Below are positions 6,228 through 24,902 of a stretch of DNA of 60,900 nt, in pieces. A program made the translations under genes and the position numbers. The stretch is from Halanaerobiales bacterium. Its GTDB lineage: Bacteria; Bacillota; Halanaerobiia; Halanaerobiales; M55B127. Below the pieces are notes generated by a model. That model was not told the origin of the DNA, made no database searches, and saw only the letters and a list, made by a program, of their open reading frames with translations. Position 1 is the stretch's first letter. Every line of letters starts with the position of its first letter. The DNA lies in contig DATGCJ010000060.1 of the NCBI GenBank assembly GCA_035312025.1, forward strand, positions 1-60,900, written 5' to 3'.

Positions 6228-7127
6228 TTAGTCATTATCTTTTTTATATGGTATTCTTTCATAAGGTTCGAACTTACTTTTTGCTTCCTTAGTTAACCCG
6301 TCATATACACTTAGATTTCTATCTTCTAGATGGTCAAAGATCATAGGTGATTTAACCCCATAAGAAACATGTTTTATGGGATCACTGTCTAAACGGGCGG
6401 AGACAATTTCTTCTGTTCCCCGAGCTAAGGCTATTTTTTCAGCAATAGGACTAATAATCATGCTGTGACCGAAATAATAATTTTCTTCTGCATCTGCTCC
6501 AACTGAATTAACACCGATCATGTAGATATGATTATCATAAGCACGAGCTTTATTGGTCATTTCCCAAATATCATAACTTCTCAGTAAGGCAGAAGGCCTA
6601 ACAATAACTTCAGCCCCTTTGATAGCTAAGATTCTGCTTAATTCGGGGAAGTCTCCCTCATAACAAATTGTAATTCCAATATTGGCCAGGTCAGTTTCAA
6701 AAACCTCTACTTTGTTACCTGGTGTTGTCCAGCCTCCCCCCTGTAATCTTTCGGAGGGGAAAAGGTGTGTTTTGGAATATTTTCCAATTATATTACCATC
6801 AGGACCAATCAAGACCGCACTATTATAAACAACTCCCCGCTTTTCACCTCGTTCATAGGTAGGTAAAACAACAAATACACTATTTTTTTTGGCTGCTTTT
6901 GCGATTGGACCTGTTAATTTTCCGGGTACATAATCAATTTTATCCCACAGTTCTTCTGGACTACAGCCAGGAGCAAATCCGGTTGTTATCGACTCGGGAA
7001 AAACAATTAGTTCAGCATTATGCTCATCAACTGCCTTATTTAACCAGGTTATTATCTTATTTATATTATATTCAATATTATCAGGTTTAACACTAATCTG
7101 AACCCCTGCAACAACAAAATCTTTCAA
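6228..7127 (-). CDS. carbon-nitrogen hydrolase (nitrilase superfamily) amidase/decarbamoylase
   Basis: The E-K-C triad context is present: FPE near residue 45, YSKTHLF, and ICYEGDFPE. Length is 299 aa. TTG start with SD GGGGGTG 5 nt upstream. Confidence 0.85.
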   Translation of the reverse strand: MKDFVVAGVQISVKPDNIEYNINKIITWLNKAVDEHNAELIVFPESITTGFAPGCSPEELWDKIDYVPGKLTGPIAKAAKKNSVFVVLPTYERGEKRGVVYNSAVLIGPDGNIIGKYSKTHLFPSERLQGGGWTTPGNKVEVFETDLANIGITICYEGDFPELSRILAIKGAEVIVRPSALLRSYDIWEMTNKARAYDNHIYMIGVNSVGADAEENYYFGHSMIISPIAEKIALARGTEEIVSARLDSDPIKHVSYGVKSPMIFDHLEDRNLSVYDGLTKEAKSKFEPYERIPYKKDND

Positions 7128-7138
7128 GCTAACACCCC

Positions 7139-8299
7139 CTAGCCTAAATATTTTTTGATTATCTCTTCAGTGTGTTCTCCTAACTTAGGAGCCCTTTCAC
7201 GTTCAGTCTCATCTTGAGTATCTGATAGTTTAATTGGATTACCAGCAATTGTAAATCTGCCATCGTCAGGGTCTACAACATCAACCAACATATTACGGGC
7301 TTCAACCTGAGGATGATTAAATAGGTCTTCTACATCATTGATAGGTCCAGCAGGAACTCCGTGATTATCAAGTAGTTCAATTACATCATCAGCCTTTTTA
7401 TCTATTACAAAATCATTAATTATTTCTACTAACTCTTCCCTATTTTCAGTCCGTTTATCGTTTGTTTTAAAACGAGGATCGTCAATAAGATCTTCTCTAC
7501 CAATTGCCTCGCAAAATTTAGCCCATATATTATCATTACCAACAGCAATAATAAACCATTCATCCTTTGCTTTAAATGCCTGAAATGGTGTAATTGAAGG
7601 ATGGCGGTTACCTAACGGTCCCGGGGCCTCCCCTGAAGCTGTATAACGGGCAATAGCATTTTCTAAAATCGCAATCTGACTATCTAACATCGCAATATCC
7701 ACTTTTTTACCTTTGCCAGTTTTTTTTCTTTCATGTACAGCTGCCAGTATTCCTACTGTGGCAAAAAGAGCTGCTACAATATCACCGATAGAGGCTCCTA
7801 CCCTTACCGGGGGACGATCTGGTTCTCCCGTTATACTCATGATTCCACCAGCAGCCTGGACTATCATATCATAAGCTGCTTTATCTGAATAAGGACCACT
7901 GTGTCCAAAGCCTGAAATTGCAGCATATATTAATTTTTCATTGTATTCTTTTAAGGTATTATAATCTAAGTTTAACTTTTCCATTGTTGTAGGTCTAAAG
8001 TTTTCAACTAATATATCTACTTTTTTGACTAATCCTAAGAATGTATTCCTGTCTTCTTCATCTTTTAAATTAAGGGTAATACTTTTCTTACCCCAATTTA
8101 GACTAATGAAATAAGCACTTCGGCCTTCAATAAAGGGTCCAAAATGTCTTGAATCATCGCCTGTTTCCGGTCTTTCAACTTTAATTATTTCAGCCCCTAA
8201 ATCCTTTAAGAGCATAGTACAAAAGGGACCTGCAAGTACTCTAGATAAATCTAGGACAACTAAGTCTTCTAAAGGTTTTTTATTATTAATGATAATCAC
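7139..8299 (-). CDS. family III CoA-transferase (CaiB/BaiF/Frc-like)
   Basis: The N-terminus PLEDLVVLDLSRVLAGPFCTMLLKDLGAEIIKVE and the central GASIGD (catalytic Asp region) are typical of CoA_transf_3. The exact start is uncertain because the GTG at 8299 abuts the SD AGGAGG. An in-frame ATC or ATT 6-9 nt downstream is possible. Confidence 0.85.
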   Translation of the reverse strand: MIIINNKKPLEDLVVLDLSRVLAGPFCTMLLKDLGAEIIKVERPETGDDSRHFGPFIEGRSAYFISLNWGKKSITLNLKDEEDRNTFLGLVKKVDILVENFRPTTMEKLNLDYNTLKEYNEKLIYAAISGFGHSGPYSDKAAYDMIVQAAGGIMSITGEPDRPPVRVGASIGDIVAALFATVGILAAVHERKKTGKGKKVDIAMLDSQIAILENAIARYTASGEAPGPLGNRHPSITPFQAFKAKDEWFIIAVGNDNIWAKFCEAIGREDLIDDPRFKTNDKRTENREELVEIINDFVIDKKADDVIELLDNHGVPAGPINDVEDLFNHPQVEARNMLVDVVDPDDGRFTIAGNPIKLSDTQDETERERAPKLGEHTEEIIKKYLG

Positions 8300-8367
8300 C
8301 CTCCTATTTATTTTCTTTTTTAATGAACATATTTTATATAATAATTAATACAGGTCTGGTCTAACGA

Positions 8368-8396
8368 TAGATAATAAAAAGTCTATATATTTTCAA
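8368..8396 (-). promoter_or_regulatory. candidate sigma-A promoter for the CoA-transferase/C-N hydrolase unit
   Basis: The minus strand has TTGAAA (8396-8391), a 17-nt spacer and TATCTA (8373-8368). A 14-bp perfect palindrome lies 8 bp upstream (8404-8417). Confidence 0.35.
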
Positions 8397-8584: not shown

Positions 8585-10909
8585 TTACTTCTCTTTCTCA
8601 ATATAATCATAAATTCTTTCCGGAATAACCGGCATTTCTTTGATATGGATCCCAATTGCATCCTGAACAGCATTACCTACTGCTGAAGGAATAGAAAGCA
8701 TGGGATGTTCTGCTACACCACGAGCTCCATAGGGTCCGTCTTCTTGAGCATTTTCTATTATAATTGGTTTTAATTCCGGTATATCAGCAATTGAAGGTAC
8801 TTTATAATCAGTAAAAGTATTTGTCAAGAGTCTACCGTCATCACTAAATTGATATCCTTCCATCACAGCGGAACCATAGCCTTGAATTACTCCACCTTCA
8901 ATTTGGCCAATTACATTCTGCTTATTTATAGTTTTACCTACATCGAAAGCAGAAGCGATCTTAATTACTTCCAGTTCACCTGTTTCTTCATCAACAATTA
9001 CTTCTACACCATGGGCTCCATAAGTCCAGTCAAGGGCAGGTAATCCCTGGCCTGTTTCTGGATCAATGTTAGTTAAGCCTTGAGCAATATAGTTACCTCT
9101 TGCAACTAAAGGCCCACCGATTGCATTACCATTTGGATAAGAATAACCCATTGCTAAATCTTTAAAGCTAATATACTTATCTTTATGATGTCTGATTTTT
9201 ACCTTTTCATCTTCTATAATTAAGTCTTCTACAGAACATCTTAAGGGCTCAGAAGCAACTTCTTTTAACTGTTGAGCCATATCCTGACATGCTTTGATGG
9301 TAGCATTACCGGACATAAATAGACCCTTAGAGGCAACAGTTTGCCAATCATAAGGTTGAGTTTCTGTATTTTGTTCCCAGACTACATTTACTTTATCAAT
9401 TGGTATATCAAGCTGATCTGATACAATCTGTGCCAAAGCAGTATAAGTACCTTGACCGTAATCAGTTAAAGAAACAGTTAAGTTAAGAGTACCATTTTCA
9501 TTAAACTTAAGAAAGGCTGCAGTCCCTGTATCGGTAGGCATTGCAGGTGCCTTGTGTAATAAAGCAAGTCCTTTACCTCTTTTTTTGCCGTCCGGCAGAT
9601 CATCAGAACTTCTATTTTCATAATCTATTTCTTCTGCAACAGCTTCCAGACATTCTAGCACTTTACCATGTGATTCACCAATATGTTCACCAGTAATTGT
9701 GACTGAACCTCTCTTTAAGCCATTTTTCATTCTAATATCATAAGGGCTCATTCCTATTTCTTCAGCTACAAGGTCCATCTGTCTTTCAACTGCCCAGAGA
9801 ATCTCTAAGTGGCCAAAACCTCTATAAGCAGTACCAAAAATCTTATTGGTATAGACTGTTTTTGAATCTAGTTTTACATTATCAACTTCATAAGGACCAG
9901 CACCAGCAGTTGCTGCTGCTCTAGTAACATTAACACCATAATCAGCGTTAGCACCACTATCCCATAAATATTCAGATTCAAAAGCAACAATTTTTCCTTC
10001 TTTTGTTACTCCTGTTTTCAATTTGGAATATAAACCTTGTCTAACTGGAACAGAATTAAACTCTTCCATTCTGGACATTACAATCTTAACAGGTCTTCCC
10101 TGAGAAGCCCTTGATAGACAGGTTACTAAAGGTTCAAAATGGATACCTGCTTTTCCACCGAAACCTCCCCCAACATATGGGATTTGTACTTCGATATCTT
10201 CATGGTTTAAATGAAGTCCATTTGCTAATAAATTTCTAACTGCAAAAGGAGATTGAGCAGATGTCCAAATTTTAACTTTCTTACCAGGCATCCACTTCGC
10301 TATTGAAGTATGGGTTTCCAAGGCAGTATGATCAACCATTGGTAATTCAAATTCATTTTCTATGATATAATCTGCTTCTTCGAAACCTTTCTCAATATCA
10401 CCTTTTCTGATCTTAGTATGGTGTGCAATATTGGTTCCCGGTTTTGGAAAAAAGACAGGCGCACTTTCTAATTCTCCTAAATTTTCATGAACTAATGGCG
10501 CGTCTTCTTTAACAGCTTCTTTGACATCTAATGCTGCCTCTAATTTTTCATATTCAATATCTATAAGTTCAATAGCTTTTTCTGCAATTTCTTCTGTTTC
10601 AGCTGCAACTGCAACAACTGGTTCACCTTGATACCTCACCTTGTCGACAGCTAATATGTCTTTATCTACCAGGTAAAGCCCTACTTTATAGGGAAGGTCT
10701 TTCCCGGTCAGTACTGTCCAGACTCCTGGTAATTTTTCTGCTTCTGAGGAATCTATATTAACTATTTTAGCATGGGCATGAGGGCTTAACTTCATTTTGG
10801 CATGCAGCATACCCTGTAATTCCATGTCATGAACAAAGGTTGCACTACCCGTAACTTTTTCTAATGCTTTAATTCTATTTACACTTTTACCAATCATCTC
10901 TTCACTCAC
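8585..10909 (-). CDS. xanthine dehydrogenase/aldehyde oxidase family molybdopterin-binding large subunit
   Basis: 774 aa, with an N-terminal a/b-hammerhead region (KVTGSATF), the VGGGFGGK motif and a C-terminal ARGVAEHP carrying the catalytic Glu. It is adjacent to the small and medium subunits. Confidence 0.9.
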   Translation of the reverse strand: MSEEMIGKSVNRIKALEKVTGSATFVHDMELQGMLHAKMKLSPHAHAKIVNIDSSEAEKLPGVWTVLTGKDLPYKVGLYLVDKDILAVDKVRYQGEPVVAVAAETEEIAEKAIELIDIEYEKLEAALDVKEAVKEDAPLVHENLGELESAPVFFPKPGTNIAHHTKIRKGDIEKGFEEADYIIENEFELPMVDHTALETHTSIAKWMPGKKVKIWTSAQSPFAVRNLLANGLHLNHEDIEVQIPYVGGGFGGKAGIHFEPLVTCLSRASQGRPVKIVMSRMEEFNSVPVRQGLYSKLKTGVTKEGKIVAFESEYLWDSGANADYGVNVTRAAATAGAGPYEVDNVKLDSKTVYTNKIFGTAYRGFGHLEILWAVERQMDLVAEEIGMSPYDIRMKNGLKRGSVTITGEHIGESHGKVLECLEAVAEEIDYENRSSDDLPDGKKRGKGLALLHKAPAMPTDTGTAAFLKFNENGTLNLTVSLTDYGQGTYTALAQIVSDQLDIPIDKVNVVWEQNTETQPYDWQTVASKGLFMSGNATIKACQDMAQQLKEVASEPLRCSVEDLIIEDEKVKIRHHKDKYISFKDLAMGYSYPNGNAIGGPLVARGNYIAQGLTNIDPETGQGLPALDWTYGAHGVEVIVDEETGELEVIKIASAFDVGKTINKQNVIGQIEGGVIQGYGSAVMEGYQFSDDGRLLTNTFTDYKVPSIADIPELKPIIIENAQEDGPYGARGVAEHPMLSIPSAVGNAVQDAIGIHIKEMPVIPERIYDYIEKEK

Positions 10910-10911
10910 TA

Positions 10912-11382
10912 TTAGTTGCCCCCCTTCTTCTCAGCTGCACGTTTTACCGCATTTCTAATAGAGTAATATCCTGTACAGCGACAAATATTACCTGATAAAG
11001 CAATATCAATATCTTCATCAGAAGGATTAGGATTTCTATCTAATAATGCCTTTGTAGACATAACCATACCTGGTGTACAAAAACCACATTGAATAGCATT
11101 CTCTTCAATAAAAGCTTTTTGTATATCGCTGATCTCTTCACCGATCGACTGTCCTTCAATAGTTTCTATTTCAGAACCATCCGCTTCTACAGATAAAATT
11201 AAACAACTTGTTACAGCCTTACCATCCATGATAACAGTACAGGCGCCACATTCTCCTTCTCCACAACCTTCTTTTGCACCAGTAAAATTTAATTTTTTTC
11301 TTAGGGTATCAAGAAGAATTTCATTTTCCTGTACTTCTAATTCAAAAATTCTTCCATTTACTGTTAGATTAATGGTTTTCAT
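10912..11382 (-). CDS. (2Fe-2S)-binding small subunit of the Mo hydroxylase
   Basis: Has both cluster motifs, CGEGECGACTV and CGFCTPG...CRCTGY. Length is 156 aa. Confidence 0.9.
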   Translation of the reverse strand: MKTINLTVNGRIFELEVQENEILLDTLRKKLNFTGAKEGCGEGECGACTVIMDGKAVTSCLILSVEADGSEIETIEGQSIGEEISDIQKAFIEENAIQCGFCTPGMVMSTKALLDRNPNPSDEDIDIALSGNICRCTGYYSIRNAVKRAAEKKGGN

Positions 11383-12236
11383 TATTTATCACCTGCTTCC
11401 CATAAACTGGAAAGAATTCTTTTTGTATAAACTTCAGATAGCTTTTTTCTATATTTTTTTGTACTTCTTACATCGTCAATCGGATTAATGTTATCTAAAA
11501 TTCTGTTAACAATTTTCCCCTGCTTTTCTTCAAAAGAGCCATCTGCAAATAAAAGATCACTAACATCTACATAAACTGGGGTTGGAGCTACTGCGCCTAA
11601 AGCAAATGCAAGATATTCTTCTGCTTTAGATAGATACCCTGCTACCCCTATTCCACTTAAATCAGGACCTTTAGTTCTTCTTTTTTTGAGATAAGCTCCC
11701 TTGCCATCTTCAGCATGTTTTTGTACTATTAAGCCTTTGACTACTTCTTTATCTTTTAATACATTGCTTTTTACTCCTGTCGCAAACTCATCTAAAGGAA
11801 CCTCTCTACTTCCCTCTTTACTTTCAATTAAAACGGTAGTCTTTAGTACTAATAAGCTGGGAAACATATCTGCACCCGGGGAAGTAGTACATAAGTTGCC
11901 AACAACTGTTGCTCTATTACGAACCTGGTGAGCTGCAACTTCTAAAGCTGCATCTGCTAATATTTTATAATCATTATTAACCAGTTCACTGTCGATTATT
12001 TCATTACAAGTTACAGTTCCACCTATAAATAAACCAGCATCTCTTTCTTCTATTTTACCAAAATCTTTAATACCTTTAACATCAATAATATAATCAGGTT
12101 TTCTTGTCTTATGTTTCATATCAACAAAAAGGTCTGTTCCACCCGCTAACAAGGCGGATTCGCCCTCATTATTATCTAAAATTTCAAATAATTCTTCTAA
12201 TTTTGTTGGTTTAAAATAATCAAATTTATTTAACAT
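11382..12236 (-). CDS. FAD-binding medium subunit of the Mo hydroxylase (CoxM/XdhB-like)
   Basis: 284 aa, with LLAGGTDL and the ATVGGNL FAD-binding motifs. The stop/start is coupled to the 2Fe-2S subunit. Confidence 0.85.
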   Translation of the reverse strand: MLNKFDYFKPTKLEELFEILDNNEGESALLAGGTDLFVDMKHKTRKPDYIIDVKGIKDFGKIEERDAGLFIGGTVTCNEIIDSELVNNDYKILADAALEVAAHQVRNRATVVGNLCTTSPGADMFPSLLVLKTTVLIESKEGSREVPLDEFATGVKSNVLKDKEVVKGLIVQKHAEDGKGAYLKKRRTKGPDLSGIGVAGYLSKAEEYLAFALGAVAPTPVYVDVSDLLFADGSFEEKQGKIVNRILDNINPIDDVRSTKKYRKKLSEVYTKRILSSLWEAGDK

Positions 12237-13227: not shown

Positions 13228-13267
13228 TTAAAAGTAAAGAAAGGAACCCTGTGGTAAGCAGGATTCC
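13228..13267 (-). terminator. terminator-like hairpin between the cyclase gene and carbamate kinase
   Basis: The minus strand reads GGAATCCTG-CTTACCA-CAGGGTTCC, 9 bp with one G-U pair. That pair would be a C-A mismatch on the plus strand. It is followed by TTTCTTTACTTTT. Confidence 0.4.
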
Positions 13268-18425: not shown

Positions 18426-18842
18426 TTATTCTATAACTACTAATACTTCTCCCGCTTCTACTTTTTGGTTCTCATCTACATTTACCTCACTAACCTGGCC
18501 AGAAGTAGGGGCATATACTTCGTTTTCCATCTTCATCGCTTCCAGTACTAAAAGTAAGTCTCCTTTTGTTACTTCTTCACCTTGCTTAACCTTTACCTCT
18601 AAGACTGTCCCTGTCATAGGGGCTTCTACTGTGCCGGCTCCCCTACTGGAACTAGCAGATTTTCTTGGCTTTTTCTTGGCTTTTGAACTGGTCTCTGCGG
18701 TAGATGTTGAAGTTTTAGGTTGTGGTGCATGTTCTCTGTTTTGAGTTTCGGATTGAACTACTGACTGTTGGTCAGTTTCGACTTCTTCTACTTCAACTTC
18801 ATATAATTCATCATTAACTTTTACTTTAAATTTTTTAGTCAT
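18426..18842 (-). CDS. biotin carboxyl carrier subunit of the decarboxylase
   Basis: A C-terminal biotinyl domain carries EAMKMENE, preceded by a Ser/Thr/Lys-rich linker. ATGA overlap with the upstream gene. Confidence 0.85.
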
Positions 18843-19249
18843 AATAACTCTCCTTTATTATTTGCTGATATTCCGCCGCGGGTGACTCTACCCCAGATCG
18901 GCACATCGTCTTTAACTCTTGTAATCTTTTTTATCTTAAATTTTTTCTGCTTACTTGAACTTTCTATACTCATGATGGCCGCCATAATTGCTGCCACTTC
19001 TTTTTTATGGTCTATATCAGGTTCTAAATCTGCCACTTTAGGCTCAACTTTTTTTGCATCTTCTTTAAAGTCTATCTTTTCAGAATAAAAGATCTTCTTT
19101 AAAATATTTACCACTATCATCAAAAGAAAGAGAATCAAAAATACTATTAACATACCTAAAATAGCTACCTGTAGACCCGAAATTAATTTTTGATTTAAAG
19201 TCATTGACTGTACTAAATTGGGGTCTCTTAATAACTCGAGAGGATTCAC
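18839..19249 (-). CDS. OadG/MmdD-like small membrane-anchored decarboxylase subunit
   Basis: A single N-terminal TM helix ([20 protein letters not shown]) is followed by a charged tail. The gene lies between the carboxyltransferase and the biotin carrier. GTG start with SD AAGGAGG 7 nt upstream. Confidence 0.55.
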
Positions 19250-19269: not shown

Positions 19270-20814
19270 CTATAAAGGAATATTACCGTGTTTTTTATTG
19301 GGCTGATTTTCCCTTTTACCTATTACAGATTCTAAGGCCATGATAATCCTTGGTCTTGTATTACGGGGGTCTATTACATCATCTATATAGCCTTCGGCTG
19401 CTGCCCGGTAAGGATTTGCAAAGCTTTCTCTGTACTCTTCGATTTTCTCCTGCCTTTTTTCTTCCGGATTTTCGGCCTTTTTTATCTCTTTTCTAAAAAT
19501 TATATTGGCAGCACCCTGAGGCCCCATAACAGCAATTTCTGCATTTGGCCATGCAAATACATAGTCAGCACCAAGGTGTCTACTACTCATCGCTATATAA
19601 GCTCCACCATAGGCTTTTCTTAAAATAACAGTTATCATGGGTACGGTCGCTTCTGAATAAGCATATAATAATTTTGCGCCGTGTCTAATAACTCCACCGT
19701 ACTCCTGTTCTACTCCCGGTAGATAGCCAGGCACATCTGTGAAGGTAACAATCGGAATATTAAATGAATCACAGAACCTGATAAAACGAGCAGCTTTATC
19801 GGAAGAATCTATATCTAGAGTACCTGCTTTAACTCGGGGTTGATTTGCAATCACTCCCACTGAACGTCCATTTAAACGGGCAAAACCCACTACGATATTT
19901 TTGGCATAATACTTATGAACTTCAAAGAAATCTTGGTTATCAACGACTTTTTTTATTACATCTCTAATATCATAGGCTTTATTAGGATTAATCGGCACAA
20001 TATCTTTTAACTTATCTTCCACACGTTCCGGGGAATCGTTAGTTTCAACTACAGGGGCTCCTTCTAAATTGTTATTAGGAATAAATGAAATTAACCTTTT
20101 TATCTGTTCAAAACTATGCTCTTCATTATCAGCTAAAAAGTGTGCTACTCCACTTACTTCGTTATGAGTGGAACCTCCCCCTAGTTCTTCAGCACTAACT
20201 TCTTCTCCCGTTACTGATTTTACTACCTGTGGGCCTGTAATAAACATTTTAGAGGTGTGGTCAACCATAAAGACAAAGTCTGTAATGGCGGGAGAGTAGA
20301 CTGCTCCACCTGCACATGGTCCTAAAATTACAGATATCTGTGGGATTACACCAGAAATATCAGTATTCCTTTTAAAGATTTCTCCGTAACCTTTCAGGGC
20401 GTTAACACCTTCTTGGATTCTCGCTCCACCCGAATCTAAAAGTGCAATAAATGGTGAACCAGATTTTTGTGCTAAATCCATAATTCTACATATCTTTTTG
20501 GCGTGCATCTCTCCTAAAGAACCGCCCATTGTGGTAAAATCCTGAGCAAATAAATATACAGATCTTCCATTGATCGTTCCTTGGCCGGTTATCACACCAT
20601 CAGCCGGAATCTCTCTTTCGTCCATTCCTAAATCTTGTGAATGATGCTCTACAAACATGCCTATCTCTTGAAAGCTACCTTCATCCAACAATCTGTCGAT
20701 TCTTTCGCGGGCGGTTAACTTACCTTTGCTATGTTGTTTTTCAATCCTTTTTTCTCCACCGCCTTTAGAAACTTCTCCTCTTTTTTTGTGTAGTTCTTTA
20801 ATTTTATCTTTCAA
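19270..20814 (-). CDS. acyl-CoA carboxyltransferase subunit (methylmalonyl-/malonyl-CoA decarboxylase alpha, PccB-like)
   Basis: 514 aa and collinear with PccB/MmdA (GGGEKRIEKQHSKGKLTARERI, GGARIQEG, PCAGGAVYSPA, AYGGAY). TTG start with SD AGGGAGGG. Confidence 0.9.
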   Translation of the reverse strand: MKDKIKELHKKRGEVSKGGGEKRIEKQHSKGKLTARERIDRLLDEGSFQEIGMFVEHHSQDLGMDEREIPADGVITGQGTINGRSVYLFAQDFTTMGGSLGEMHAKKICRIMDLAQKSGSPFIALLDSGGARIQEGVNALKGYGEIFKRNTDISGVIPQISVILGPCAGGAVYSPAITDFVFMVDHTSKMFITGPQVVKSVTGEEVSAEELGGGSTHNEVSGVAHFLADNEEHSFEQIKRLISFIPNNNLEGAPVVETNDSPERVEDKLKDIVPINPNKAYDIRDVIKKVVDNQDFFEVHKYYAKNIVVGFARLNGRSVGVIANQPRVKAGTLDIDSSDKAARFIRFCDSFNIPIVTFTDVPGYLPGVEQEYGGVIRHGAKLLYAYSEATVPMITVILRKAYGGAYIAMSSRHLGADYVFAWPNAEIAVMGPQGAANIIFRKEIKKAENPEEKRQEKIEEYRESFANPYRAAAEGYIDDVIDPRNTRPRIIMALESVIGKRENQPNKKHGNIPL

Positions 20815-20853
20815 CTGGGTCCCTCCCTTGATATATCTATAGTTATATTGTAT

Positions 20854-20882: not shown

Positions 20883-20935
20883 AAACAGTATACCTTTGTT
20901 TATTTTAACAATAATTTCATTTTTTTATTGAAACC

Positions 20936-21778
20936 TTACATAATTAAGCCAAAATATAATCCTGATAGCATATCTAGACCTGAACTATTACCCATTTCTA
21001 TTAACTTTTCAGTATATTTTCTATAATATTTTTCCCCATTTTCTATATTTTTGTATATATCAACTAATCTTTTATTATATCTATGATTAATTGCTCCTTT
21101 TAAATGAAGTGCACTAACGCGATTAGTTTTATCAAATAGCTCATCTGTTTCCATTTCATTAATCACATTCAATTTATCTTCTGCTAATTTTGCTTCTATG
21201 ACTGATAAATATCCCACTATAAAGTCATCTCCTGTTGGTGTAAGGCCAATTCCCAACCCCAACAAATTATTGATAGAAATCTTTTTTTCTAAGATATCTT
21301 TTAACTTATTATAAAATTCTCGCTGTAAAGTTGATAACTTAAATTCTTGTATGTTATTTATTATATTAGTAAACTTTAAGATTGTATGGTCTAAACTGCC
21401 TGAACGGTTGGTATTTTTAATAACCTTCTCAGTCCATTCTATTAAAAGATCCCTATCTACAAATGAACAATCCTTTATTTTGCCACTAAAAATGTTTTTA
21501 TTATTATAATTAAATATATTTTTATTATAAATTATTTGTTCGTTGTTTATTTTTATTTTTGTTTCTTCTTCTAAGCTATTTTTGATATTGTTGAATATAT
21601 AATTTGGTAACTTCACGTGGTAAGGAGCTAGGGTTACCTTACTGTCAGTTATTGCATAGCCTTTATTATTTTTTGTTTTTATATTTATAACATTATTAAA
21701 TTTGCTAATTATATTACCATTTAAGCTATAATTTTCTTTTACTAAATCACCTTCAATAATATAATCAAACATTTTCAT
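20936..21778 (-). CDS. DUF2877-like protein (YlbF-like)
   Basis: 280 aa, with internal GLGIGLTPTGDDF and C-terminal GNSSGLDMLSG motifs. Size and co-occurrence with fdrA/DUF1116/carbamate kinase fit the E. coli ylbF position. This is a family call from memory and needs an HMM check. Confidence 0.5.
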   Translation of the reverse strand: MKMFDYIIEGDLVKENYSLNGNIISKFNNVINIKTKNNKGYAITDSKVTLAPYHVKLPNYIFNNIKNSLEEETKIKINNEQIIYNKNIFNYNNKNIFSGKIKDCSFVDRDLLIEWTEKVIKNTNRSGSLDHTILKFTNIINNIQEFKLSTLQREFYNKLKDILEKKISINNLLGLGIGLTPTGDDFIVGYLSVIEAKLAEDKLNVINEMETDELFDKTNRVSALHLKGAINHRYNKRLVDIYKNIENGEKYYRKYTEKLIEMGNSSGLDMLSGLYFGLIM

Positions 21779-23444
21779 TACCTAATATATCAGTAAAGTT
21801 TAGCATTTTCAAAGCAATTTCAAGATTTAATTTATCGTCAGGATTATCAAGGCTTAAACCTGTAATTTTTTCTATTCTCTTTAATCTATAATGAACTGTA
21901 TTATAATGAACATATATTTTTTTGGCTACATTGGTAAGATTTCCATTTTCTTCGAAAAAAGCCTTTAATGTTTTTAAAAGTTCTGTATTATGGGCTTTAT
22001 CATATTTTAGTAAAGGAATTAAGGAATTTTTTAAAAACCTATTCTTTTCTTCCCTATCAACTTTATACAGTAATTTATAGACTCCTAAATCATCAAAGAA
22101 ATATACCTGATCTTTTTTATTTAATTTATTGGCTACATTTATGGTCCTTTTAGCTTGGGAATAACTTTCATGTAAATTAATTATTTCTTTTTTATAATTC
22201 CCTACTCCTACAGTTACTAAGTCTCTATCCTTTTGATCAAATACATTCAATACTTTTTGAGAAAATTCTTTGATACTCTTTTTCTCTTTGCCAGGATATA
22301 AAGCTACTAGATAAGTACCTAAATCTCCAATAATTACCTCTTCATCAATTATTCTATTAGCTGATTCTAAATAACTTTTTTGGATATTTTCGTTTAAAAT
22401 CCCCTTCTTTTTAAAATGCTTTGAAATTAACTCTTTTAATTCAAATACCACCACTGAAAAACCTTTATCTAACTCCATATCCATATTTTGACCGCGATTT
22501 AATATAGTCTTTTTGTTATTAATTTTCCCTTTTAAAATATCATAAAGTAACTCGTTTTTATATTTTAACTCCACATTTGCTATAGAGCGTTTATTTAAAA
22601 TATCAAGAGCAGCTATTGTACTAGCCCACTTTAATGTTGATATATCTAATTCATTTATACTCTTGCCATATTCCCAGGCAAATAGATAGCCAAAATGACT
22701 ATTAGGAGTGTTAATAGGAATCTTCATTAGATTAATTTCCTTACCATGCAAAGTAACATCAATTTTCTTACAGTGGTAATTAAAGACCTCTTCTTTAGAT
22801 TCTTTTTGATCATTAATAGATATGCTGTCAGTGAGATCTTTTTTAGTAACTTCATTGTTAAAATCATCTGGAATAGAATACGAGATAATAGCTCCATTGG
22901 AATCGGTAATTAAAACAGGATTTTTTATCATATCAACTAAAACAGTGGATAATCTATCAAGTCCATTTTCATAAAGTACTGTATTGGTAAGTACTTCATG
23001 GATATTTAAAGTTTTTTCTAAAAATCTGGTCTGAACATTAAGTATCTCACTTAAAATAGGGTTGATAAATACTGAATAGGAATAATCATAAGGAATTTTA
23101 AGTAAAGGAAAGTTATGTAGCTCAGCTTGTTCAATCATAAATGAAGGTATCTCATTAATATACCTACCTGGTTTTATACCTAATCCAGCTAAGTTTTTTT
23201 GAGCTAAATTAGGTATTAGATTTTTTAAGGCTTTTTCATCGTCTTTAATTGAATACAGTGTGGTGAATAAAAGTTCTCCTTCTTTAACCCAGTCTAAAAT
23301 ATCAGGAACTTCCATAATGTTGACCTTTGTAATATGACGTTCTAAACCATCTTTACCCGCTAAAATTTCAACTTCTTTCATCTTTTCTAGCTTTAAAGCA
23401 TCTGCCATAGTTATTCCAATTAACTCTTTCATCAATTTCACCAT
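21765..23444 (-). CDS. PucR-family transcriptional regulator
   Basis: Has an N-terminal PurC-like domain (ILAGKDGLERHITKVNIMEVPDILDWVKEGELLFTT) and a C-terminal PucR-type HTH (NLTNVAKKIYVHYNTVHYRLKRIEKITG). The start could be an internal ATG. Confidence 0.85.
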   Translation of the reverse strand: MVKLMKELIGITMADALKLEKMKEVEILAGKDGLERHITKVNIMEVPDILDWVKEGELLFTTLYSIKDDEKALKNLIPNLAQKNLAGLGIKPGRYINEIPSFMIEQAELHNFPLLKIPYDYSYSVFINPILSEILNVQTRFLEKTLNIHEVLTNTVLYENGLDRLSTVLVDMIKNPVLITDSNGAIISYSIPDDFNNEVTKKDLTDSISINDQKESKEEVFNYHCKKIDVTLHGKEINLMKIPINTPNSHFGYLFAWEYGKSINELDISTLKWASTIAALDILNKRSIANVELKYKNELLYDILKGKINNKKTILNRGQNMDMELDKGFSVVVFELKELISKHFKKKGILNENIQKSYLESANRIIDEEVIIGDLGTYLVALYPGKEKKSIKEFSQKVLNVFDQKDRDLVTVGVGNYKKEIINLHESYSQAKRTINVANKLNKKDQVYFFDDLGVYKLLYKVDREEKNRFLKNSLIPLLKYDKAHNTELLKTLKAFFEENGNLTNVAKKIYVHYNTVHYRLKRIEKITGLSLDNPDDKLNLEIALKMLNFTDILGNENV

Positions 23445-23555
23445 CCTGAGAAAAGTTTATTTGTAAATAATACATCTAGAATTATAACACAGATAAACTC
23501 AATATGGAAGAACTCACAACAATTTTTCCTTAAGCATTTTATTGTTTGTAAATAT

Positions 23556-23590
23556 TCAATAAAAAAAGGCAACCCATAAGGTTGCCTTTA
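23556..23590 (-). terminator. rho-independent terminator downstream of the permease gene
   Basis: A stem AAGGCAACC/GGTTGCCTT (23566-23574 and 23580-23588) with a 5-nt loop is followed on the minus strand by a run of 7 T. Confidence 0.75.
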
Positions 23591-23654
23591 TTGATAATTA
23601 TTATAAGTTTATTATTAACTTAATTATTATATCTCTATGATATTTAACTTGTTT

Positions 23655-24902
23655 TTACATTTGGGCAAATTCTTCTTCTCCATCGGGAAGAATTAGATTC
23701 AAGACAACACCGACAAGTGCTGCCAGAGCTAAACTAGAAAATTCTATTCTTCCGAGCTGGAGAGTTGCTCCACCAAGACCAAGTACAATAACTGTTGCAA
23801 CGATAACTAGGTTTCTTGAAATCTTAAGATCAGTTTGACTTTCTACTAAAGTCCTAATACCAATAGTAGCAATCATACCGTATAAGAGGAATGAAATACC
23901 ACCAATAACTGGATTAGGGATGGTTTCAATTAGTCCACCGAACTTCGGAACAATAGCCATTGCAATTGCAAAGGTAGCACCAATTCTCATAACAACTGGA
24001 TCATATACTTTAGTAATAGCTAAGACACCGGTGTTTTCTCCATATGTAGTGTTTGGAGGTCCACCAAAGATACCCGCAAGTGAAGTTGCCATACCATCAC
24101 CAAACATAGTTCTATGAATACCAGGATCTGTAACTAATTCTCTTCCCTTACCAATTGTTTCACTAATAGCTAAAATATCTCCAACGTGCTCAACCATTGA
24201 TACTAGTGCAACGGGAGCTATAATGGTAATAGCTGTAATATTAACTGCTGGAACTGTAAATTCAGGAAGACCAATCCAGGCATTATTAATTACTGGTGAA
24301 AAGTCAACCATGCCTACAATTACCGCCACGATATAACCAGTTACCAAGCCAACAATGATAGGAACAAGTTTAAAAAATCCTTTAGCAAAAATAGCAGCAA
24401 TAACCGCTCCAGCTAAAGCTGCAATAGCCACAACAACATTAAGTGCGCTTCCCGTTGACATATCAATTGCAGTTGGAGCTAAGATTGTACCGATAAGAAT
24501 AATAACTGGACCAGTAACAACTGGTGGGAATATTTTCTTAATTAAACTAGGTCCTACTTTATAAATGATAAAGGCAACAATAGCATAAATAAGACCAGCT
24601 GCTATAATACCACCCTGTGCAGCTGGAATGCCACCATGCTGTTCAATAACTAATGATATAGGTGCAATAAATGCAAATGAAGAACCTAGATAGGCAGGTA
24701 CCTTTTTCTTTGTAATGAAGTGAAATAGCCAGGTACCAACACCTGCAGTAAATAGTGCAACACTTACATGTAGCCCTGTTAAAATTGGTACTAAAATGGT
24801 AGCTCCGAACATCGCTAATGCGTGCTGTAGGCCAAGAAAGATCGCTTGCGATTTGGGAAGGTTACTAACATCCCTCACAGCTTGTTCTTCTCGTGATTCC
24901 AT
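23655..24902 (-). CDS. uraA: NCS2-family nucleobase permease, UraA/PyrP (uracil permease)-like
   Basis: Long collinear identity blocks with E. coli UraA: GLQHALAMFGATILVP, KVPAYLGSSFAFIAP, EHVGD, GGPPNTTYGENTGVLAITKVY and GGISFLLYGMIATIGIRTLVES. Length is 415 aa. Confidence 0.85.
   Translation of the reverse strand: MESREEQAVRDVSNLPKSQAIFLGLQHALAMFGATILVPILTGLHVSVALFTAGVGTWLFHFITKKKVPAYLGSSFAFIAPISLVIEQHGGIPAAQGGIIAAGLIYAIVAFIIYKVGPSLIKKIFPPVVTGPVIILIGTILAPTAIDMSTGSALNVVVAIAALAGAVIAAIFAKGFFKLVPIIVGLVTGYIVAVIVGMVDFSPVINNAWIGLPEFTVPAVNITAITIIAPVALVSMVEHVGDILAISETIGKGRELVTDPGIHRTMFGDGMATSLAGIFGGPPNTTYGENTGVLAITKVYDPVVMRIGATFAIAMAIVPKFGGLIETIPNPVIGGISFLLYGMIATIGIRTLVESQTDLKISRNLVIVATVIVLGLGGATLQLGRIEFSSLALAALVGVVLNLILPDGEEEFAQM

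What the first reader, a model, noticed from the sequence alone, without database searches (positions are those of the whole stretch)
6228..24902. Candidate undescribed anaerobic, energy-conserving oxidative pyrimidine (uracil/thymine) degradation island
All 16 co-directional genes between 6228 and 24902 can be ordered into one chemically coherent route that is not a textbook pathway. (1) A UraA-type permease imports the base. (2) A three-subunit Mo/FAD/2Fe-2S hydroxylase converts uracil/thymine to barbiturate/5-methylbarbiturate, the first step of the aerobic oxidative pyrimidine pathway known from Rhodococcus and Mycobacterium. (3) A cyclase-family metallo-amidohydrolase opens the ring to ureidomalonate (malonurate). 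(4) FdrA + DUF1116 + DUF2877 split it with phosphate into carbamoyl phosphate + malonamate. These are homologues of the E. coli fdrA-ylbE-ylbF set associated with oxamate carbamoyltransferase, and malonurate is oxalurate plus one CH2. (5) Carbamate kinase makes ATP. (6) The C-N hydrolase converts malonamate to malonate + NH3. (7) The family III CoA-transferase makes malonyl-CoA. (8) The four-subunit biotin Na+-pumping decarboxylase gives acetyl-CoA (or propionyl-CoA from thymine) + CO2 and a sodium gradient. The product acyl-CoA can re-prime the transferase, analogous to the Frc/Oxc oxalate cycle. A PucR-family regulator sits in the middle. The window contains no barbiturase/AtzD-like gene, ureidomalonase, urease, allantoinase, allantoate amidohydrolase, uricase, dihydropyrimidine dehydrogenase or Rut genes. 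None of the known purine or pyrimidine routes therefore explains this gene set. The pathway assignment is inference from gene content only.
Basis: partly seen in the sequence, partly recalled or inferred. Interest (0 to 1): 0.9.

Follow-up and report, generated by a model that had tools for sequence, protein, structure and literature searches.

The report
Anaerobic uracil-to-acetate breakdown gene cluster
A salt-loving anaerobe carries a 16-17-gene cluster, found in variant forms in hundreds of other anaerobic species, that most likely breaks down uracil or thymine by an undescribed route that yields ATP and a sodium gradient; this rests on sequence comparison only.

Summary

The cyclase-family hydrolase is 60-70% identical in more than 590 species across many phyla. 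In 82 loci it repeatedly sits beside:
- the three-subunit Mo hydroxylase
- AllF/AllG
- a uracil-type NCS2 permease
- the Na+-pumping malonyl/methylmalonyl-CoA decarboxylase
- CoA-transferase plus amidase

Some loci add pyrimidine entry genes: uridine phosphorylase, two kinds of cytosine deaminase, and a nucleoside ABC transporter. No urate, allantoin, urease, Rut, barbiturase or oxalyl-CoA decarboxylase gene was seen near the cluster.

Two module swaps point to malonyl-CoA as the hub:
- A sister genome replaces CoA-transferase + C-N hydrolase with a GNAT-fold protein.
- The decarboxylase and a thiolase/DUF35 pair never co-occur.

Ten literature searches found no description of this route.

Best reading, confidence about 0.6: uracil/thymine -> barbiturate -> ureidomalonate -> carbamoyl phosphate (ATP) + malonamate -> malonate -> malonyl-CoA -> acetyl-CoA + CO2.

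I class it as a new variant of the oxidative pyrimidine pathway. It can be tested in Moorella thermoacetica and Anoxybacter fermentans.

The parts
25191..25673 (+). Small nitroreductase-family flavoprotein (160 aa), divergent from the permease. Candidate 17th cluster member; role unknown.
   Evidence: Pfam PF00881/PF14512. Homologues lie inside the orthologous clusters of Anoxybacter (L007, 32% identity) and Acididesulfobacillus (L093, 33% identity). A plus-strand terminator-like hairpin at 25698-25724 follows it.
23655..24902 (-). NCS2 nucleobase:cation symporter of UraA (uracil permease) type. Proposed role: uptake of uracil/thymine.
   Evidence: Pfam Xan_ur_permease. NCBIfam UraA 396 bits, ahead of RutG 310 and PbuX 222. 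303-307 bits to E. coli UraA structures, with F73, E241 and G289-E290 conserved and H245 replaced by D.
23565..23589 (-). Intrinsic-terminator-like hairpin plus U-run after the permease gene.
   Evidence: 11-bp stem.: -15.3 kcal/mol, z = -4.6.
21765..23444 (-). PucR-family transcriptional regulator (PucR N-domain, GGDEF-like domain, HTH_30).
   Evidence: PucR homologues occur in 8 of 82 orthologous loci and in Moorella.
20936..21778 (-). AllH/DUF2877, the third subunit of an AllFGH-type carbamoyltransferase.
   Evidence: Pfam PF11392, 77.5 bits. The GLTPxGDDF motif is shared with AllH-like neighbours in other loci.
19270..20814 (-). Carboxyltransferase (alpha) subunit of a biotin-dependent Na+-pumping malonyl/methylmalonyl-CoA decarboxylase.
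   Evidence: NCBIfam mmdA 901 bits (cut-off 999). PDB best hits are PCC-beta 1vrg and 12S transcarboxylase 1on3. Motif KAYGGAYIAMS.
18839..19249 (-). Small membrane subunit of the decarboxylase (OadG/MmdD type).
   Evidence: Pfam OAD_gamma. TIGR01195 48.7 bits (cut-off 36).
18426..18842 (-). Biotin carboxyl carrier subunit (MmdC type).
   Evidence: Pfam Biotin_lipoyl; NCBIfam MmdC 99.6 bits. AMKM biotinylation motif at residue 102.
17268..18398 (-). Na+-translocating carboxybiotin decarboxylase beta subunit.
   Evidence: TIGR01109 536 bits (cut-off 191). Pfam OAD_beta 544 bits.
15497..17059 (-). AllF/FdrA subunit (succinyl-CoA-synthetase-alpha-like) of the AllFGH-type carbamoyltransferase. Proposed role: phosphorolysis of ureidomalonate.
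   Evidence: NCBIfam FdrA 525 bits (cut-off 433). 272 bits to E. coli FdrA structure 3dmy.
14058..15482 (-). AllG/DUF1116 subunit.
   Evidence: Pfam PF06545, 327 bits. 50-66% identical orthologues lie next to the cyclase in 39 loci.
13284..14042 (-). Cyclase-family (PF04199) metal-dependent amidohydrolase. Proposed role: barbiturate ring opening.
   Evidence: Pfam 120 bits. Invariant HxGTHxD motif. 60-70% identical in more than 590 species. The model's structural neighbours are Mn isatin hydrolases and kynurenine formamidases.
13243..13267 (-). Hairpin between the cyclase and carbamate kinase genes. Possible partial terminator.
   Evidence: -14.2 kcal/mol, z = -3.5.
12268..13200 (-). Catabolic carbamate kinase (carbamoyl phosphate + ADP -> ATP).
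   Evidence: TIGR00746 433 bits, above the cut-off of 358.
11382..12236 (-). FAD-binding subunit of the Mo hydroxylase.
   Evidence: Pfam FAD_binding_5 and CO_deh_flav_C. At 284 aa it is shorter than the 321-position 4-hydroxybenzoyl-CoA reductase beta profile and has no [4Fe-4S] Cys motif. That this reductase's beta subunit carries an Fe-S insertion is from my memory.
10912..11382 (-). 2x[2Fe-2S] subunit of the Mo hydroxylase.
   Evidence: Pfam Fer2 and Fer2_2.
8585..10909 (-). Molybdopterin subunit of a three-subunit XDH-family hydroxylase. Proposed role: uracil/thymine C6-hydroxylase.
   Evidence: Pfam Ald_Xan_dh_C, MoCoBD_1 and MoCoBD_2. No NCBIfam equivalog passed. PDB best hits are 4-HBCoA reductase alpha, 6-hydroxypseudooxynicotine dehydrogenase and quinoline oxidoreductase. 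Mo hydroxylase subunit genes lie within 10 kb of the cyclase in 51 of 82 loci.
7139..8299 (-). Family III CoA-transferase. Proposed role: acetyl-CoA:malonate CoA-transferase.
   Evidence: Pfam CoA_transf_3, 447 bits. Best PDB hit is YfdE, the acetyl-CoA:oxalate CoA-transferase. Co-occurs with an amidase in 11 of 15 loci.
6228..7127 (-). C-N hydrolase (nitrilase superfamily). Proposed role: malonamate amidase.
   Evidence: Pfam CN_hydrolase, 172 bits. E44/K119/C155 triad. PDB neighbours include the omega-amidases Nit2 and Nit3.
6163..6212 (-). Strong intrinsic terminator that ends the cluster.
   Evidence: sequence.: -23.2 kcal/mol, z = -4.6, followed by a U-run.

Best explanation
The cluster encodes an anaerobic, ATP- and Na+-gradient-yielding variant of the oxidative pyrimidine pathway.

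Inferred steps:
1. A UraA-type permease imports uracil or thymine.
2. The Mo/FAD/2Fe-2S hydroxylase adds water-derived oxygen at C6, giving barbiturate or 5-methylbarbiturate. Electrons pass to an unidentified acceptor, possibly through the small nitroreductase-like flavoprotein.
3. The cyclase-family metallo-amidohydrolase opens the ring to ureidomalonate (malonurate).
4. The AllFGH-type enzyme phosphorolyses this N-acylurea to carbamoyl phosphate + malonamate.
5. Carbamate kinase makes ATP.
6. The C-N hydrolase gives malonate + NH3.
7. The family III CoA-transferase gives malonyl-CoA, with acetyl-CoA as the likely donor.
8. The four-subunit biotin enzyme decarboxylates it to acetyl-CoA (propionyl-CoA from thymine) while pumping Na+.

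Shown here: the family identity of every protein, intact catalytic motifs, and conserved co-localisation of these families across phyla. Inferred: every substrate and product, the electron acceptor, and the CoA donor.
For: Carbamate kinase and the Na+-decarboxylase beta subunit pass their curated cut-offs.

Conservation and synteny:
- The cyclase is 60-70% identical in more than 590 GTDB species.
- In 82 cyclase-anchored loci (+/-10 kb), the counts are: Mo hydroxylase genes 51, AllF/G 45, AllH 30, NCS2 permease 21, Mmd genes 19, CoA-transferase 15, amidase or C-N hydrolase 19.
- The Mmd genes are interleaved with the other genes in three different orders. In the window the order is PucR-AllH-Mmd-AllF. 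In Anaerolineae it is MoL-Mmd-cyclase. In Anoxybacter it is Mmd-PucR-AllH-AllF.

Pyrimidine link:
- The permease is UraA-like with the uracil-contact residues kept. All cluster-linked permeases have Glu at both UraA Glu positions.
- Uridine phosphorylase sits directly beside the cyclase in L089 and L037 (277.8 bits, cut-off 280.3).
- Fcy1-type cytosine deaminase is present in L076 and L066.
- CodA-like deaminase is present in 5 loci.
- A cytosine/purine permease-family gene (PF02133) and a CodA-like amidohydrolase lie upstream in L093.
- A BMP-type ABC uptake system is present in 9 loci. I read it as a nucleoside transporter from the BMP family; its only NCBIfam match was weak.
- pyr biosynthesis genes are adjacent in Moorella and in an Anaerolineae locus.

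Malonyl-CoA hub:
- The carboxyltransferase is of the mmdA/PCC-beta/12S type, with Ile after GGAY.
- Mmd and thiolase+DUF35 never co-occur (0 shared among 19 and 21 loci).
- The GNAT-fold U240 and the CoA-transferase never co-occur (0 shared among 28 and 15 loci).
- In a sister genome with 96%-identical flanks, U240 cleanly replaces CoA-transferase + C-N hydrolase.

Precedents for individual steps:
- The cyclase fold matches isatin hydrolases, which open a cyclic amide.
- The C-N hydrolase's structural relatives include omega-amidases, which act on dicarboxylate monoamides.
- AllFGH phosphorolysis of the one-carbon-shorter oxalurate is established in E. coli (PMC11326118).
Against: - There are no biochemical or physiological data for any protein of this cluster.
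- AllFGH is proven only with oxalurate/oxamate. In nitrifier genomes it sits with biuret and triuret genes (PMC12625717), so its substrate range is open.
- No cyclase-family enzyme is known to hydrolyse barbiturate. The known barbiturase belongs to the unrelated AtzD family.
- The Mo subunit's nearest characterised relatives act on 4-hydroxybenzoyl-CoA, pyridine or quinoline rings. I know of no sequence for uracil dehydrogenase to compare with.
- PucR regulators are typical of purine catabolism.
- The CoA-transferase's best structural relative is an oxalate enzyme, YfdE.
- 31 of 82 loci show no Mo gene within 10 kb. Many of those contigs are short, and in Anoxybacter the upstream side is unseen.
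- Carbamate kinase lies within 10 kb in only 6 loci.
- The loci are not phylogenetically independent, so the Fisher p-values are only indicative.
Confidence: 0.6

Rival explanations
1. Same architecture, different ring. The cluster degrades another cyclic ureide or N-heterocycle, such as a 5-substituted uracil, isocytosine/isobarbiturate, or an unknown environmental ureide. Oxidation and ring opening of that compound still yield an N-acylurea of a malonate-type acid. Uracil would be only a relative of the true substrate.
For: - No NCBIfam equivalog passes for the Mo subunit, cyclase, permease, CoA-transferase or C-N hydrolase.
- The Mo subunit is closest to enzymes acting on non-pyrimidine rings.
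- The permease has H245 replaced by D relative to UraA.
- The Anaerolineae permeases are only 30-35% identical to the window's.
Against: - The accessory genes seen in other loci all funnel into uracil itself: uridine phosphorylase, two types of cytosine deaminase, and a nucleoside ABC transporter.
- The extreme conservation and breadth of the cyclase fit a universal metabolite better than an exotic compound.
Confidence: 0.2
2. Purine/oxalurate route. The Mo enzyme is a xanthine dehydrogenase. AllFGH is a true oxamate carbamoyltransferase acting on oxalurate. The C-N hydrolase is an oxamate amidase. The CoA-transferase is a YfdE-like oxalate CoA-transferase. The decarboxylase genes are unrelated passengers.
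For: - AllFGH is characterised only with oxalurate (PMC11326118).
- The CoA-transferase's best PDB hit is YfdE.
- The regulator is of the PucR family.
- The XdhA model scores 510 bits.
Against: - No uricase, allantoinase, allantoate or ureidoglycolate enzyme and no oxalyl-CoA decarboxylase is present in the window. None appears among the recurrent neighbours in 82 loci.
- The Mo subunit falls well below the XdhA/PucD cut-offs and is nearer to non-purine hydroxylases.
- The permease carries Glu, not the Gln of xanthine/urate carriers (the Gln rule is from my knowledge of the NAT family).
- The Mmd genes are interleaved with the other genes in three independent gene orders.
- A biotin carboxyltransferase cannot decarboxylate oxalyl-CoA (established chemistry).
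Confidence: 0.08
3. Anabolic or dual role. The cluster sits inside the plsX-fab-acpP region. It would mainly supply malonyl-CoA to fatty-acid synthesis, either from salvaged pyrimidines or with the Na+ decarboxylase running backwards as an acetyl-CoA carboxylase.
For: - The cluster lies between fabF and fabG-acpP-rnc.
- No acc genes are present in the window.
- Anaerolineae clusters abut yceD, a gene that here sits by rpmF-plsX.
Against: - The permease, PucR regulator, carbamate kinase and amidases are hallmarks of catabolism.
- In most phyla the cluster is not next to fab genes.
- Acc genes may lie elsewhere in this incomplete genome.
Confidence: 0.05
4. Chance mosaic. Several unrelated operons merely lie side by side: a Mo hydroxylase, an OXTCase/carbamate kinase pair, a methylmalonyl-CoA decarboxylase for succinate fermentation, and a CoA-transferase with an amidase.
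For: - Hairpins or long gaps split the region into about four predicted transcription units.
- No shared operator motif was found.
Against: The same families recur together, in shuffled orders, around the cyclase in Bacillota, Chloroflexota, Spirochaetota, Myxococcota, Thermotogota, Bipolaricaulota, Synergistota and other phyla.
Confidence: 0.02

Closest known systems
Oxidative pyrimidine pathway of Rhodococcus/Mycobacterium: uracil/thymine dehydrogenase EC 1.17.99.4, barbiturase EC 3.5.2.1, ureidomalonase EC 3.5.1.95
   Same: The proposed first three intermediates are the same: uracil -> barbiturate -> ureidomalonate. Both routes end at a malonate-level C3 unit.
   Different: - The ring opener here belongs to the cyclase family, not the AtzD/barbiturase family.
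- The ureide is proposed to be phosphorolysed to carbamoyl phosphate, which yields ATP. The known pathway hydrolyses it to urea.
- An amidase, a CoA-transferase and a Na+-pumping decarboxylase are attached here.
- The hosts here are strict anaerobes.
- No urease or ureidomalonase gene is present.
E. coli anaerobic allantoin branch: AllFGH oxamic transcarbamylase + AllK carbamate kinase (PMC11326118, PMC9843812)
   Same: All three subunits are homologous; AllF scores 272 bits against E. coli FdrA. A co-located carbamate kinase is present. The logic is the same: N-acylurea + Pi -> carbamoyl phosphate -> ATP.
   Different: - The genomic context has no allantoin or ureidoglycolate genes.
- The proposed substrate is one CH2 longer (malonurate rather than oxalurate).
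- The amide product is metabolised further, whereas E. coli excretes oxamate.
- AllH is separated from AllF-AllG by the decarboxylase genes.
Na+-translocating methylmalonyl-CoA decarboxylase MmdABCD of Veillonella and Propionigenium, and malonate fermentation via malonyl-CoA in Sporomusa malonica (from my knowledge)
   Same: The four subunit types are the same, and the gene order is A-D-C-B. A biotin carrier with an AMKM motif is present. CoA transfer followed by decarboxylation serves as an energy-conserving step.
   Different: Here the genes are embedded in a nucleobase-catabolic cluster. The MmdA score is below the curated cut-off (901 vs 999). Specificity for malonyl versus methylmalonyl substrates is unknown.
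Clostridial Mo-hydroxylase-initiated fermentations of N-heterocycles (nicotinate in Eubacterium barkeri; purines in Clostridium species)
   Same: An anaerobic, water-dependent hydroxylation by an XDH-family enzyme activates the ring for hydrolytic opening.
   Different: The ring class differs (pyrimidine), as do the downstream enzymes. No selenium-related or split large-subunit features were examined here.
Isatin hydrolase and kynurenine formamidase (cyclase family PF04199)
   Same: The fold and the HxGTHxD metal site are shared. Isatin hydrolase opens a cyclic amide.
   Different: Sequence similarity is only E ~1e-5. The window's protein belongs to a separate, very tightly conserved subfamily with its own genomic context.

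Membership tests
Classical oxidative pyrimidine pathway | Barbiturase of the AtzD/TrzD cyanuric-acid-hydrolase family | tested here: not met
   No such family appeared among the Pfam/NCBIfam hits for the ORFs of 80 aa or more that I scanned across the window. It was also absent from the recurrent neighbours in 82 loci.
Classical oxidative pyrimidine pathway | Ureidomalonase releasing urea, usually with a urease | tested here: not met
   No urease genes are present. An AllFGH + carbamate kinase set occupies that position instead.
Classical oxidative pyrimidine pathway | Uracil/thymine dehydrogenase activity forming barbiturate | not testable with these tools
   A three-subunit Mo hydroxylase is present. 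I know of no reference sequence for EC 1.17.99.4, and activity cannot be computed.
AllFGH oxamate carbamoyltransferase (OXTCase) | All three subunits AllF, AllG and AllH encoded together | tested here: met
   FdrA model 525 bits (cut-off 433). PF06545 327 bits. PF11392 77.5 bits. AllF scores 272 bits against 3dmy.
AllFGH oxamate carbamoyltransferase (OXTCase) | Adjacent catabolic carbamate kinase | tested here: met
   TIGR00746 433 bits, above the cut-off of 358.
AllFGH oxamate carbamoyltransferase (OXTCase) | Allantoin/ureidoglycolate context and oxalurate as substrate | tested here: not met
   No allB/allC/allD-type genes are present in the window or in the related loci. Substrate specificity itself is not testable.
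Na+-translocating methylmalonyl-CoA decarboxylase | Alpha carboxyltransferase, beta Na+ pump, biotin carrier and small subunit | tested here: met
   AMKM motif. The beta subunit passes TIGR01109.
Na+-translocating methylmalonyl-CoA decarboxylase | MmdA at the curated score | tested here: inconclusive
   901 bits against a cut-off of 998.8. No HMGL-type oxaloacetate carboxyltransferase (OadA) gene is present among the cluster genes, and the best models and structures are methylmalonyl/propionyl-CoA-type enzymes.
Xanthine dehydrogenase (XdhABC/PucCDE) | Equivalog-level match of the Mo subunit | tested here: not met
   XdhA 510 bits against a cut-off of 780. PucD 448 against 784. The PDB ranking puts XDH (about 235 bits) behind 4-HBCoA reductase (339 bits) and the nicotine and quinoline enzymes.
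Uracil permease UraA | Curated score and uracil-contact residues | tested here: inconclusive
   396 bits against a cut-off of 477. F73, E241 and G289-E290 are conserved, and H245 is D.
Kynurenine formamidase / cyclase family | PF04199 domain with the HxGTHxD metal motif | tested here: met
Kynurenine formamidase / cyclase family | Arylformamidase equivalog | tested here: not met
   TIGR03035 38 bits against a cut-off of 223.
Family III CoA-transferase (YfdE/Frc type) | CoA_transf_3 domain; equivalog to a named enzyme | tested here: inconclusive
   The domain scores 447 bits. The three best named models score about equally, all below their cut-offs: mesaconate 392/700, oxalate 386/522, glutarate 380/750.

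The most novel reading that the evidence does not exclude
This is one variant of a previously unrecognised, modular pathway of anaerobic pyrimidine fermentation. It is spread over hundreds of bacterial species and some archaeal ones, including Anaerolineae, Bacillota such as the model acetogen Moorella thermoacetica, Spirochaetota, Thermotogota and Bathyarchaeia.

In this reading:
- A new cyclase-family 'barbiturase' and the long-orphan uracil dehydrogenase are identified.
- AllFGH-type enzymes are general N-acylurea phosphorylases that give substrate-level ATP from pyrimidines.
- The malonyl unit is handled by interchangeable modules. The first choice is a GNAT-fold amide-to-CoA acyltransferase versus an amidase plus CoA-transferase. 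The second choice is a Na+-pumping decarboxylase versus thiolase/DUF35.
Probability: 0.45. Interest if true: 0.85.

Novelty: new variant of a known kind. Interest (0 to 1): 0.78.

Why it matters
- Only four pyrimidine degradation routes are currently listed: reductive, oxidative, Rut and URC (bioRxiv 10.1101/2025.05.19.654654). The oxidative one is regarded as aerobic, and I know of no gene assigned to its first enzyme.
- A widespread anaerobic variant that gains ATP and a sodium gradient from uracil would change how nucleobase turnover, nitrogen release and energy budgets are modelled. This applies to sediments, brines, digesters and subsurface communities.
- It would give sequences to orphan activities: uracil dehydrogenase and a second type of barbiturase.
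- It would widen the chemistry of the newly discovered AllFGH enzyme family.
- It would give functions to several large uncharacterised families: the cyclase subfamily, the GNAT-like U240, and DUF2877.

Tried and rejected
- **Literature.** All ten full-text searches found no paper on this cluster or route. The terms covered barbiturate, ureidomalonate, malonamate, uracil dehydrogenase, AllFGH, the DUF names and Moorella. Subscription-only papers cannot be excluded.
- **RNA elements.** Rfam found no riboswitch or other RNA element in the window.
- **Operator motifs.** A search for a shared operator in the six intergenic regions gave only AT-rich noise. The promoter and terminator scan counts equal the shuffle expectation. 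I therefore kept only the three hairpins that sit right after stop codons and fold well.
- **U240 by sequence.** Pfam, NCBIfam and a PDB profile search gave nothing. Only the predicted fold identified it as a GNAT.
- **Cyclase model.** It has pLDDT below 50 over residues 17-55, which include the metal motif. I did not interpret active-site geometry or attempt docking.
- **Accessory gene census.** I planned a Pfam census of about 150 accessory ORFs but abandoned it as impractical. Accessory genes were instead identified by clustering and by reading individual sequences.
- **Spurious ORFs.** Several apparent neighbour families (c15, c35, c36, c57, c71, c74) are antisense ORFs in high-GC genomes and were discarded.
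- **Rejected hypotheses.** The purine/oxalurate hypothesis and the chance-mosaic hypothesis were considered and rejected for the reasons given under the rival explanations.

Full report
**Observation**

The window has about 34% G+C, and nearly all its genes are on the minus strand. It is identical to a whole 60,900-bp NCBI contig of an uncultured Halanaerobiales MAG (P0241).

Between 6228 and 24902 there are exactly 16 minus-strand ORFs, several of them translationally coupled. In transcription order they are:
- a UraA-like NCS2 permease
- a PucR regulator
- AllH/DUF2877
- a four-gene biotin/Na+ decarboxylase in the order mmdA, oadG-like, biotin carrier, oadB-like
- AllF/FdrA
- AllG/DUF1116
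- a cyclase-family hydrolase
- carbamate kinase
- the FAD, 2Fe-2S and Mo subunits of an XDH-family hydroxylase
- a family III CoA-transferase
- a C-N hydrolase

Carbamate kinase, FdrA/AllF and the Na+-decarboxylase beta subunit pass their curated cut-offs. The biotin carrier has an AMKM motif, and the C-N hydrolase has its E-K-C triad.

Hairpins that fold well and sit right after stop codons suggest about four transcription units. These would be the permease alone, pucR to the cyclase, arcC to the Mo subunit, and the CoA-transferase with the C-N hydrolase. A strong terminator at 6163-6212 closes the cluster.

The rest of the window is housekeeping: plsX-fabKHDF upstream, Asp23-fabG-acpP-rnc downstream, then ackA/pta, recG, priA, metK and others. 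It has no barbiturase/AtzD, urease, allantoinase, uricase, DPD or Rut gene and no riboswitch.

**Is the grouping meaningful?**

I used the cyclase as an anchor because it is the least generic protein. Its relatives are unusually conserved, at 60-70% identity. They occur in Halanaerobiales, other Bacillota, Anaerolineae/Chloroflexota, Spirochaetota, Myxococcota, Thermotogota, Synergistota, Elusimicrobiota, Bipolaricaulota, Fermentibacteria and even Bathyarchaeia and Methanosarcinales MAGs.

I analysed 82 loci (+/-10 kb) with tblastn and de novo ORF clustering. The cyclase sits with:
- Mo-hydroxylase genes in 51 loci
- AllF/AllG in 45
- AllH in 30
- an NCS2 permease in 21
- the Mmd genes in 19
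- the CoA-transferase in 15
- a C-N hydrolase or amidase-signature amidase in 19
- PucR in 8
- carbamate kinase in 6

Gene order is shuffled between lineages. The window has PucR-AllH-Mmd-AllF-AllG-cyclase-ArcC-Mo-CoAT-CNhyd. Anaerolineae have CoxG-permease-Mo-Mmd-cyclase. Anoxybacter has Mmd-PucR-AllH-AllF-AllG-CoAT-cyclase-CNhyd. That pattern is the signature of functional rather than accidental linkage, so the chance-mosaic reading is effectively excluded.

**Which substrate?**

Four independent lines point to uracil-type pyrimidines.

1. The permease scores best against E. coli UraA. It keeps the residues that contact uracil in the UraA structure: F73, E241 and G289-E290. All cluster-linked permeases, including the distant Anaerolineae type, have Glu at both Glu positions. 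From my knowledge of the NAT family, xanthine/urate carriers have Gln at the second position.

2. Accessory genes in other lineages are pyrimidine entry enzymes:
   - A near-cut-off uridine phosphorylase lies directly beside the cyclase in L089 and L037.
   - Yeast-type (Fcy1) cytosine deaminase is present in L076 and L066.
   - A CodA-like deaminase is present in five loci.
   - A cytosine/purine permease-family gene and a CodA-like amidohydrolase lie upstream in Acididesulfobacillus.
   - A BMP-type ABC uptake system, which I read as a nucleoside transporter, is present in nine loci.
   - pyr biosynthesis genes abut the cluster in Moorella and in an Anaerolineae locus.

3. The decarboxylase's carboxyltransferase is of the mmdA/PCC-beta/12S type. 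It therefore needs a malonyl- or methylmalonyl-CoA-type substrate, which is exactly the C4-C5-C6 fragment of uracil or thymine. It carries Ile after the GGAY motif, as do all cluster-linked homologues. From memory, that position is Asp in propionyl-specific PccB and Ile in acetyl-accepting AccB. I treat this as weak evidence.

4. No urate, allantoin, urease or oxalyl-CoA decarboxylase gene was seen among the neighbours.

**Individual steps**

- **Mo hydroxylase.** The Mo subunit fails every named equivalog. By sequence it is closest to 4-hydroxybenzoyl-CoA reductase alpha, 6-hydroxypseudooxynicotine dehydrogenase and quinoline 2-oxidoreductase rather than to xanthine dehydrogenases. The FAD subunit is only 284 aa and has no [4Fe-4S] Cys motif. 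From memory, 4-hydroxybenzoyl-CoA reductase carries an Fe-S insertion in this subunit. The enzyme therefore looks like an ordinary hydroxylase with an unassigned substrate.
- **Cyclase.** It is only remotely related to kynurenine formamidase (E ~1e-5), but it keeps the HxGTHxD metal motif. A moderate AlphaFold model has Mn-dependent isatin hydrolases among its best structural matches. Those enzymes open a cyclic amide, which is a fair precedent for opening barbiturate.
- **AllFGH.** AllF scores 272 bits against E. coli FdrA. E. coli AllFGH has been shown to interconvert oxalurate + Pi and oxamate + carbamoyl phosphate (PMC11326118). Ureidomalonate is the next homologue of oxalurate.
- **C-N hydrolase.** Its structural relatives include the omega-amidases Nit2 and Nit3, which hydrolyse monoamides of dicarboxylates.
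- **CoA-transferase.** It is closest to YfdE, an acetyl-CoA:dicarboxylate (oxalate) transferase.

All substrate assignments are inference.

**Module swaps that support the logic**

Two families that are absent from the window are frequent neighbours elsewhere:
- a roughly 240-aa protein with no Pfam, NCBIfam or PDB sequence match, which I call U240 (28 loci)
- a thiolase + DUF35 pair (21 loci)

U240 never co-occurs with the CoA-transferase (0 shared among 28 and 15 loci). Thiolase/DUF35 never co-occurs with the Mmd decarboxylase (0 shared among 21 and 19 loci). The CoA-transferase and the amidase travel together in 11 of 15 loci. The loci are not phylogenetically independent, so the p-values are only indicative.

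The sharpest case is a sister Halanaerobiales genome, L011:
- Its Asp23-fabG-acpP-rnc flank is 96% identical to the window.
- Its cluster is only 80-83% identical.
- It has U240 cleanly inserted between oadB and allF.
- It cleanly lacks the CoA-transferase + C-N hydrolase pair.

U240 is predicted to have a GNAT acyl-CoA acyltransferase fold. The simplest reading is that the amidase + CoA-transferase pair and the GNAT protein are alternative ways to turn an amide-bound malonyl group into malonyl-CoA. Likewise, the Na+ decarboxylase and thiolase/DUF35 would be alternative sinks for malonyl-CoA.

**A probable extra member**

A 160-aa nitroreductase-family gene lies divergently upstream of the permease (25191-25673). 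Homologues lie inside the clusters of Anoxybacter and Acididesulfobacillus. Its role is unknown. It could be an electron outlet for the hydroxylase or a reductase of a reactive intermediate.

**Rivals**

- **A related but different heterocycle** cannot be excluded, because no protein reaches an equivalog score. I give it 0.2.
- **The purine/oxalurate reading** (0.08) rests on three points: AllFGH's only known substrate, the YfdE similarity, and the PucR regulator. It fails on context, on the permease residues, on the Mo subunit's affinities, and on the chemistry of a biotin decarboxylase.
- **An anabolic link to fatty-acid synthesis** (0.05) is suggested only by the cluster's position inside the fab region.
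- **Chance adjacency** is about 0.02.

**Comparison with the known, and novelty**

The proposed intermediates are those of the classical oxidative pyrimidine pathway. Its defining enzymes, however, are absent: the AtzD-family barbiturase and the urea-releasing ureidomalonase. They are replaced by unrelated families and by a phosphorolytic, ATP-yielding step borrowed from the anaerobic allantoin branch, and the route is extended by a malonate-fermentation module.

A 2025 survey of nucleobase catabolism lists only the reductive, oxidative, Rut and URC pyrimidine routes (10.1101/2025.05.19.654654). None of my ten full-text searches found this cluster. I class it as a new variant of a known kind. 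Confidence is about 0.6 for the specific route. By my estimate, confidence is about 0.85 for the more general statement: a nucleobase or cyclic-ureide catabolic cluster that makes carbamoyl phosphate for ATP and a malonyl-type CoA ester that is decarboxylated.

The cluster is present in cultured, partly genetically tractable organisms: Moorella thermoacetica, Anoxybacter fermentans, Fuchsiella and Acididesulfobacillus. The hypothesis is therefore directly testable.

Noticed in passing
L011 6039-6976 vs window 17066-17177; window 6034-8585 vs L011 15461-15509: A sister Halanaerobiales genome has 96%-identical flanks, but its cluster is only 80-83% identical. It carries a GNAT-fold gene (U240) where the window has about 110 bp. 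It lacks the CoA-transferase + C-N hydrolase pair. This looks like a non-orthologous module swap, probably by recombination or horizontal transfer of the cluster.
   Followed up: yes
82 cyclase-anchored loci (L007-L090): Thiolase + DUF35 (21 loci) and the Na+ decarboxylase (19 loci) are never found together. U240 (28 loci) and the CoA-transferase (15 loci) are never found together. This suggests interchangeable modules around malonyl-CoA. The chemistry of U240 and of thiolase/DUF35 is unexplained.
   Followed up: partly
window 25191-25673 (+); L007 12023-12502; L093 18196-18669: A small TM1586-type nitroreductase-family protein recurs beside or inside the cluster in three distant lineages.
   Followed up: partly
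window 3336-5956 and 25732-33108; L024, L038, L040, L052, L074: The cluster is embedded in the yceD-rpmF-plsX-fabKHDF ... fabG-acpP-rnc region. In Anaerolineae it also abuts yceD. A malonyl-CoA-producing cluster next to malonyl-CoA-consuming FAS genes may be coincidence or a functional link. No acc genes are present in the window.
   Followed up: no
window 14058-15482 (AllG residues 9-56); L007 7293-7472: The N-terminal ~50 residues of AllG match the C-terminal tail of the E. coli-type FdrA model. In Anoxybacter a separate 59-aa ORF lies between allF and allG. The AllF/AllG domain boundary appears to shift between lineages.
   Followed up: no
L036, L047, L054, L058, L063, L073, L090: An AllH/DUF2877 gene often directly follows the Mo-subunit gene, without AllF/AllG beside it. 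This hints that DUF2877 may have a role tied to the hydroxylase as well as, or instead of, the carbamoyltransferase.
   Followed up: no
window 24903-25190 (upstream of the permease): The 12-mer TTAATATCATAT occurs twice in direct orientation about 22 nt apart, just upstream of the permease ribosome-binding site. It may be an operator. No matching motif was found in the other intergenic regions.
   Followed up: partly
L092 (Moorella thermoacetica CP136551.1, 2,127,710-2,150,055): The model acetogen carries a complete variant of the cluster: AllH-AllF-AllG-cyclase-FAD-FeS-Mo-permease-PucR-U240-thiolase-DUF35-carbamate kinase. It lies right after pyrK/pyrD-like and phosphoribosyltransferase genes. 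In one record its Mo subunit is annotated as '4-hydroxybenzoyl-CoA reductase alpha', which is probably a misannotation.
   Followed up: partly
L009 18048-20280: In one Anaerolineae locus, the FAD and 2Fe-2S subunit genes are followed by a sulfite-oxidase-type Mo domain (PF00174) rather than an XDH-type Mo subunit. This is an unusual combination.
   Followed up: no
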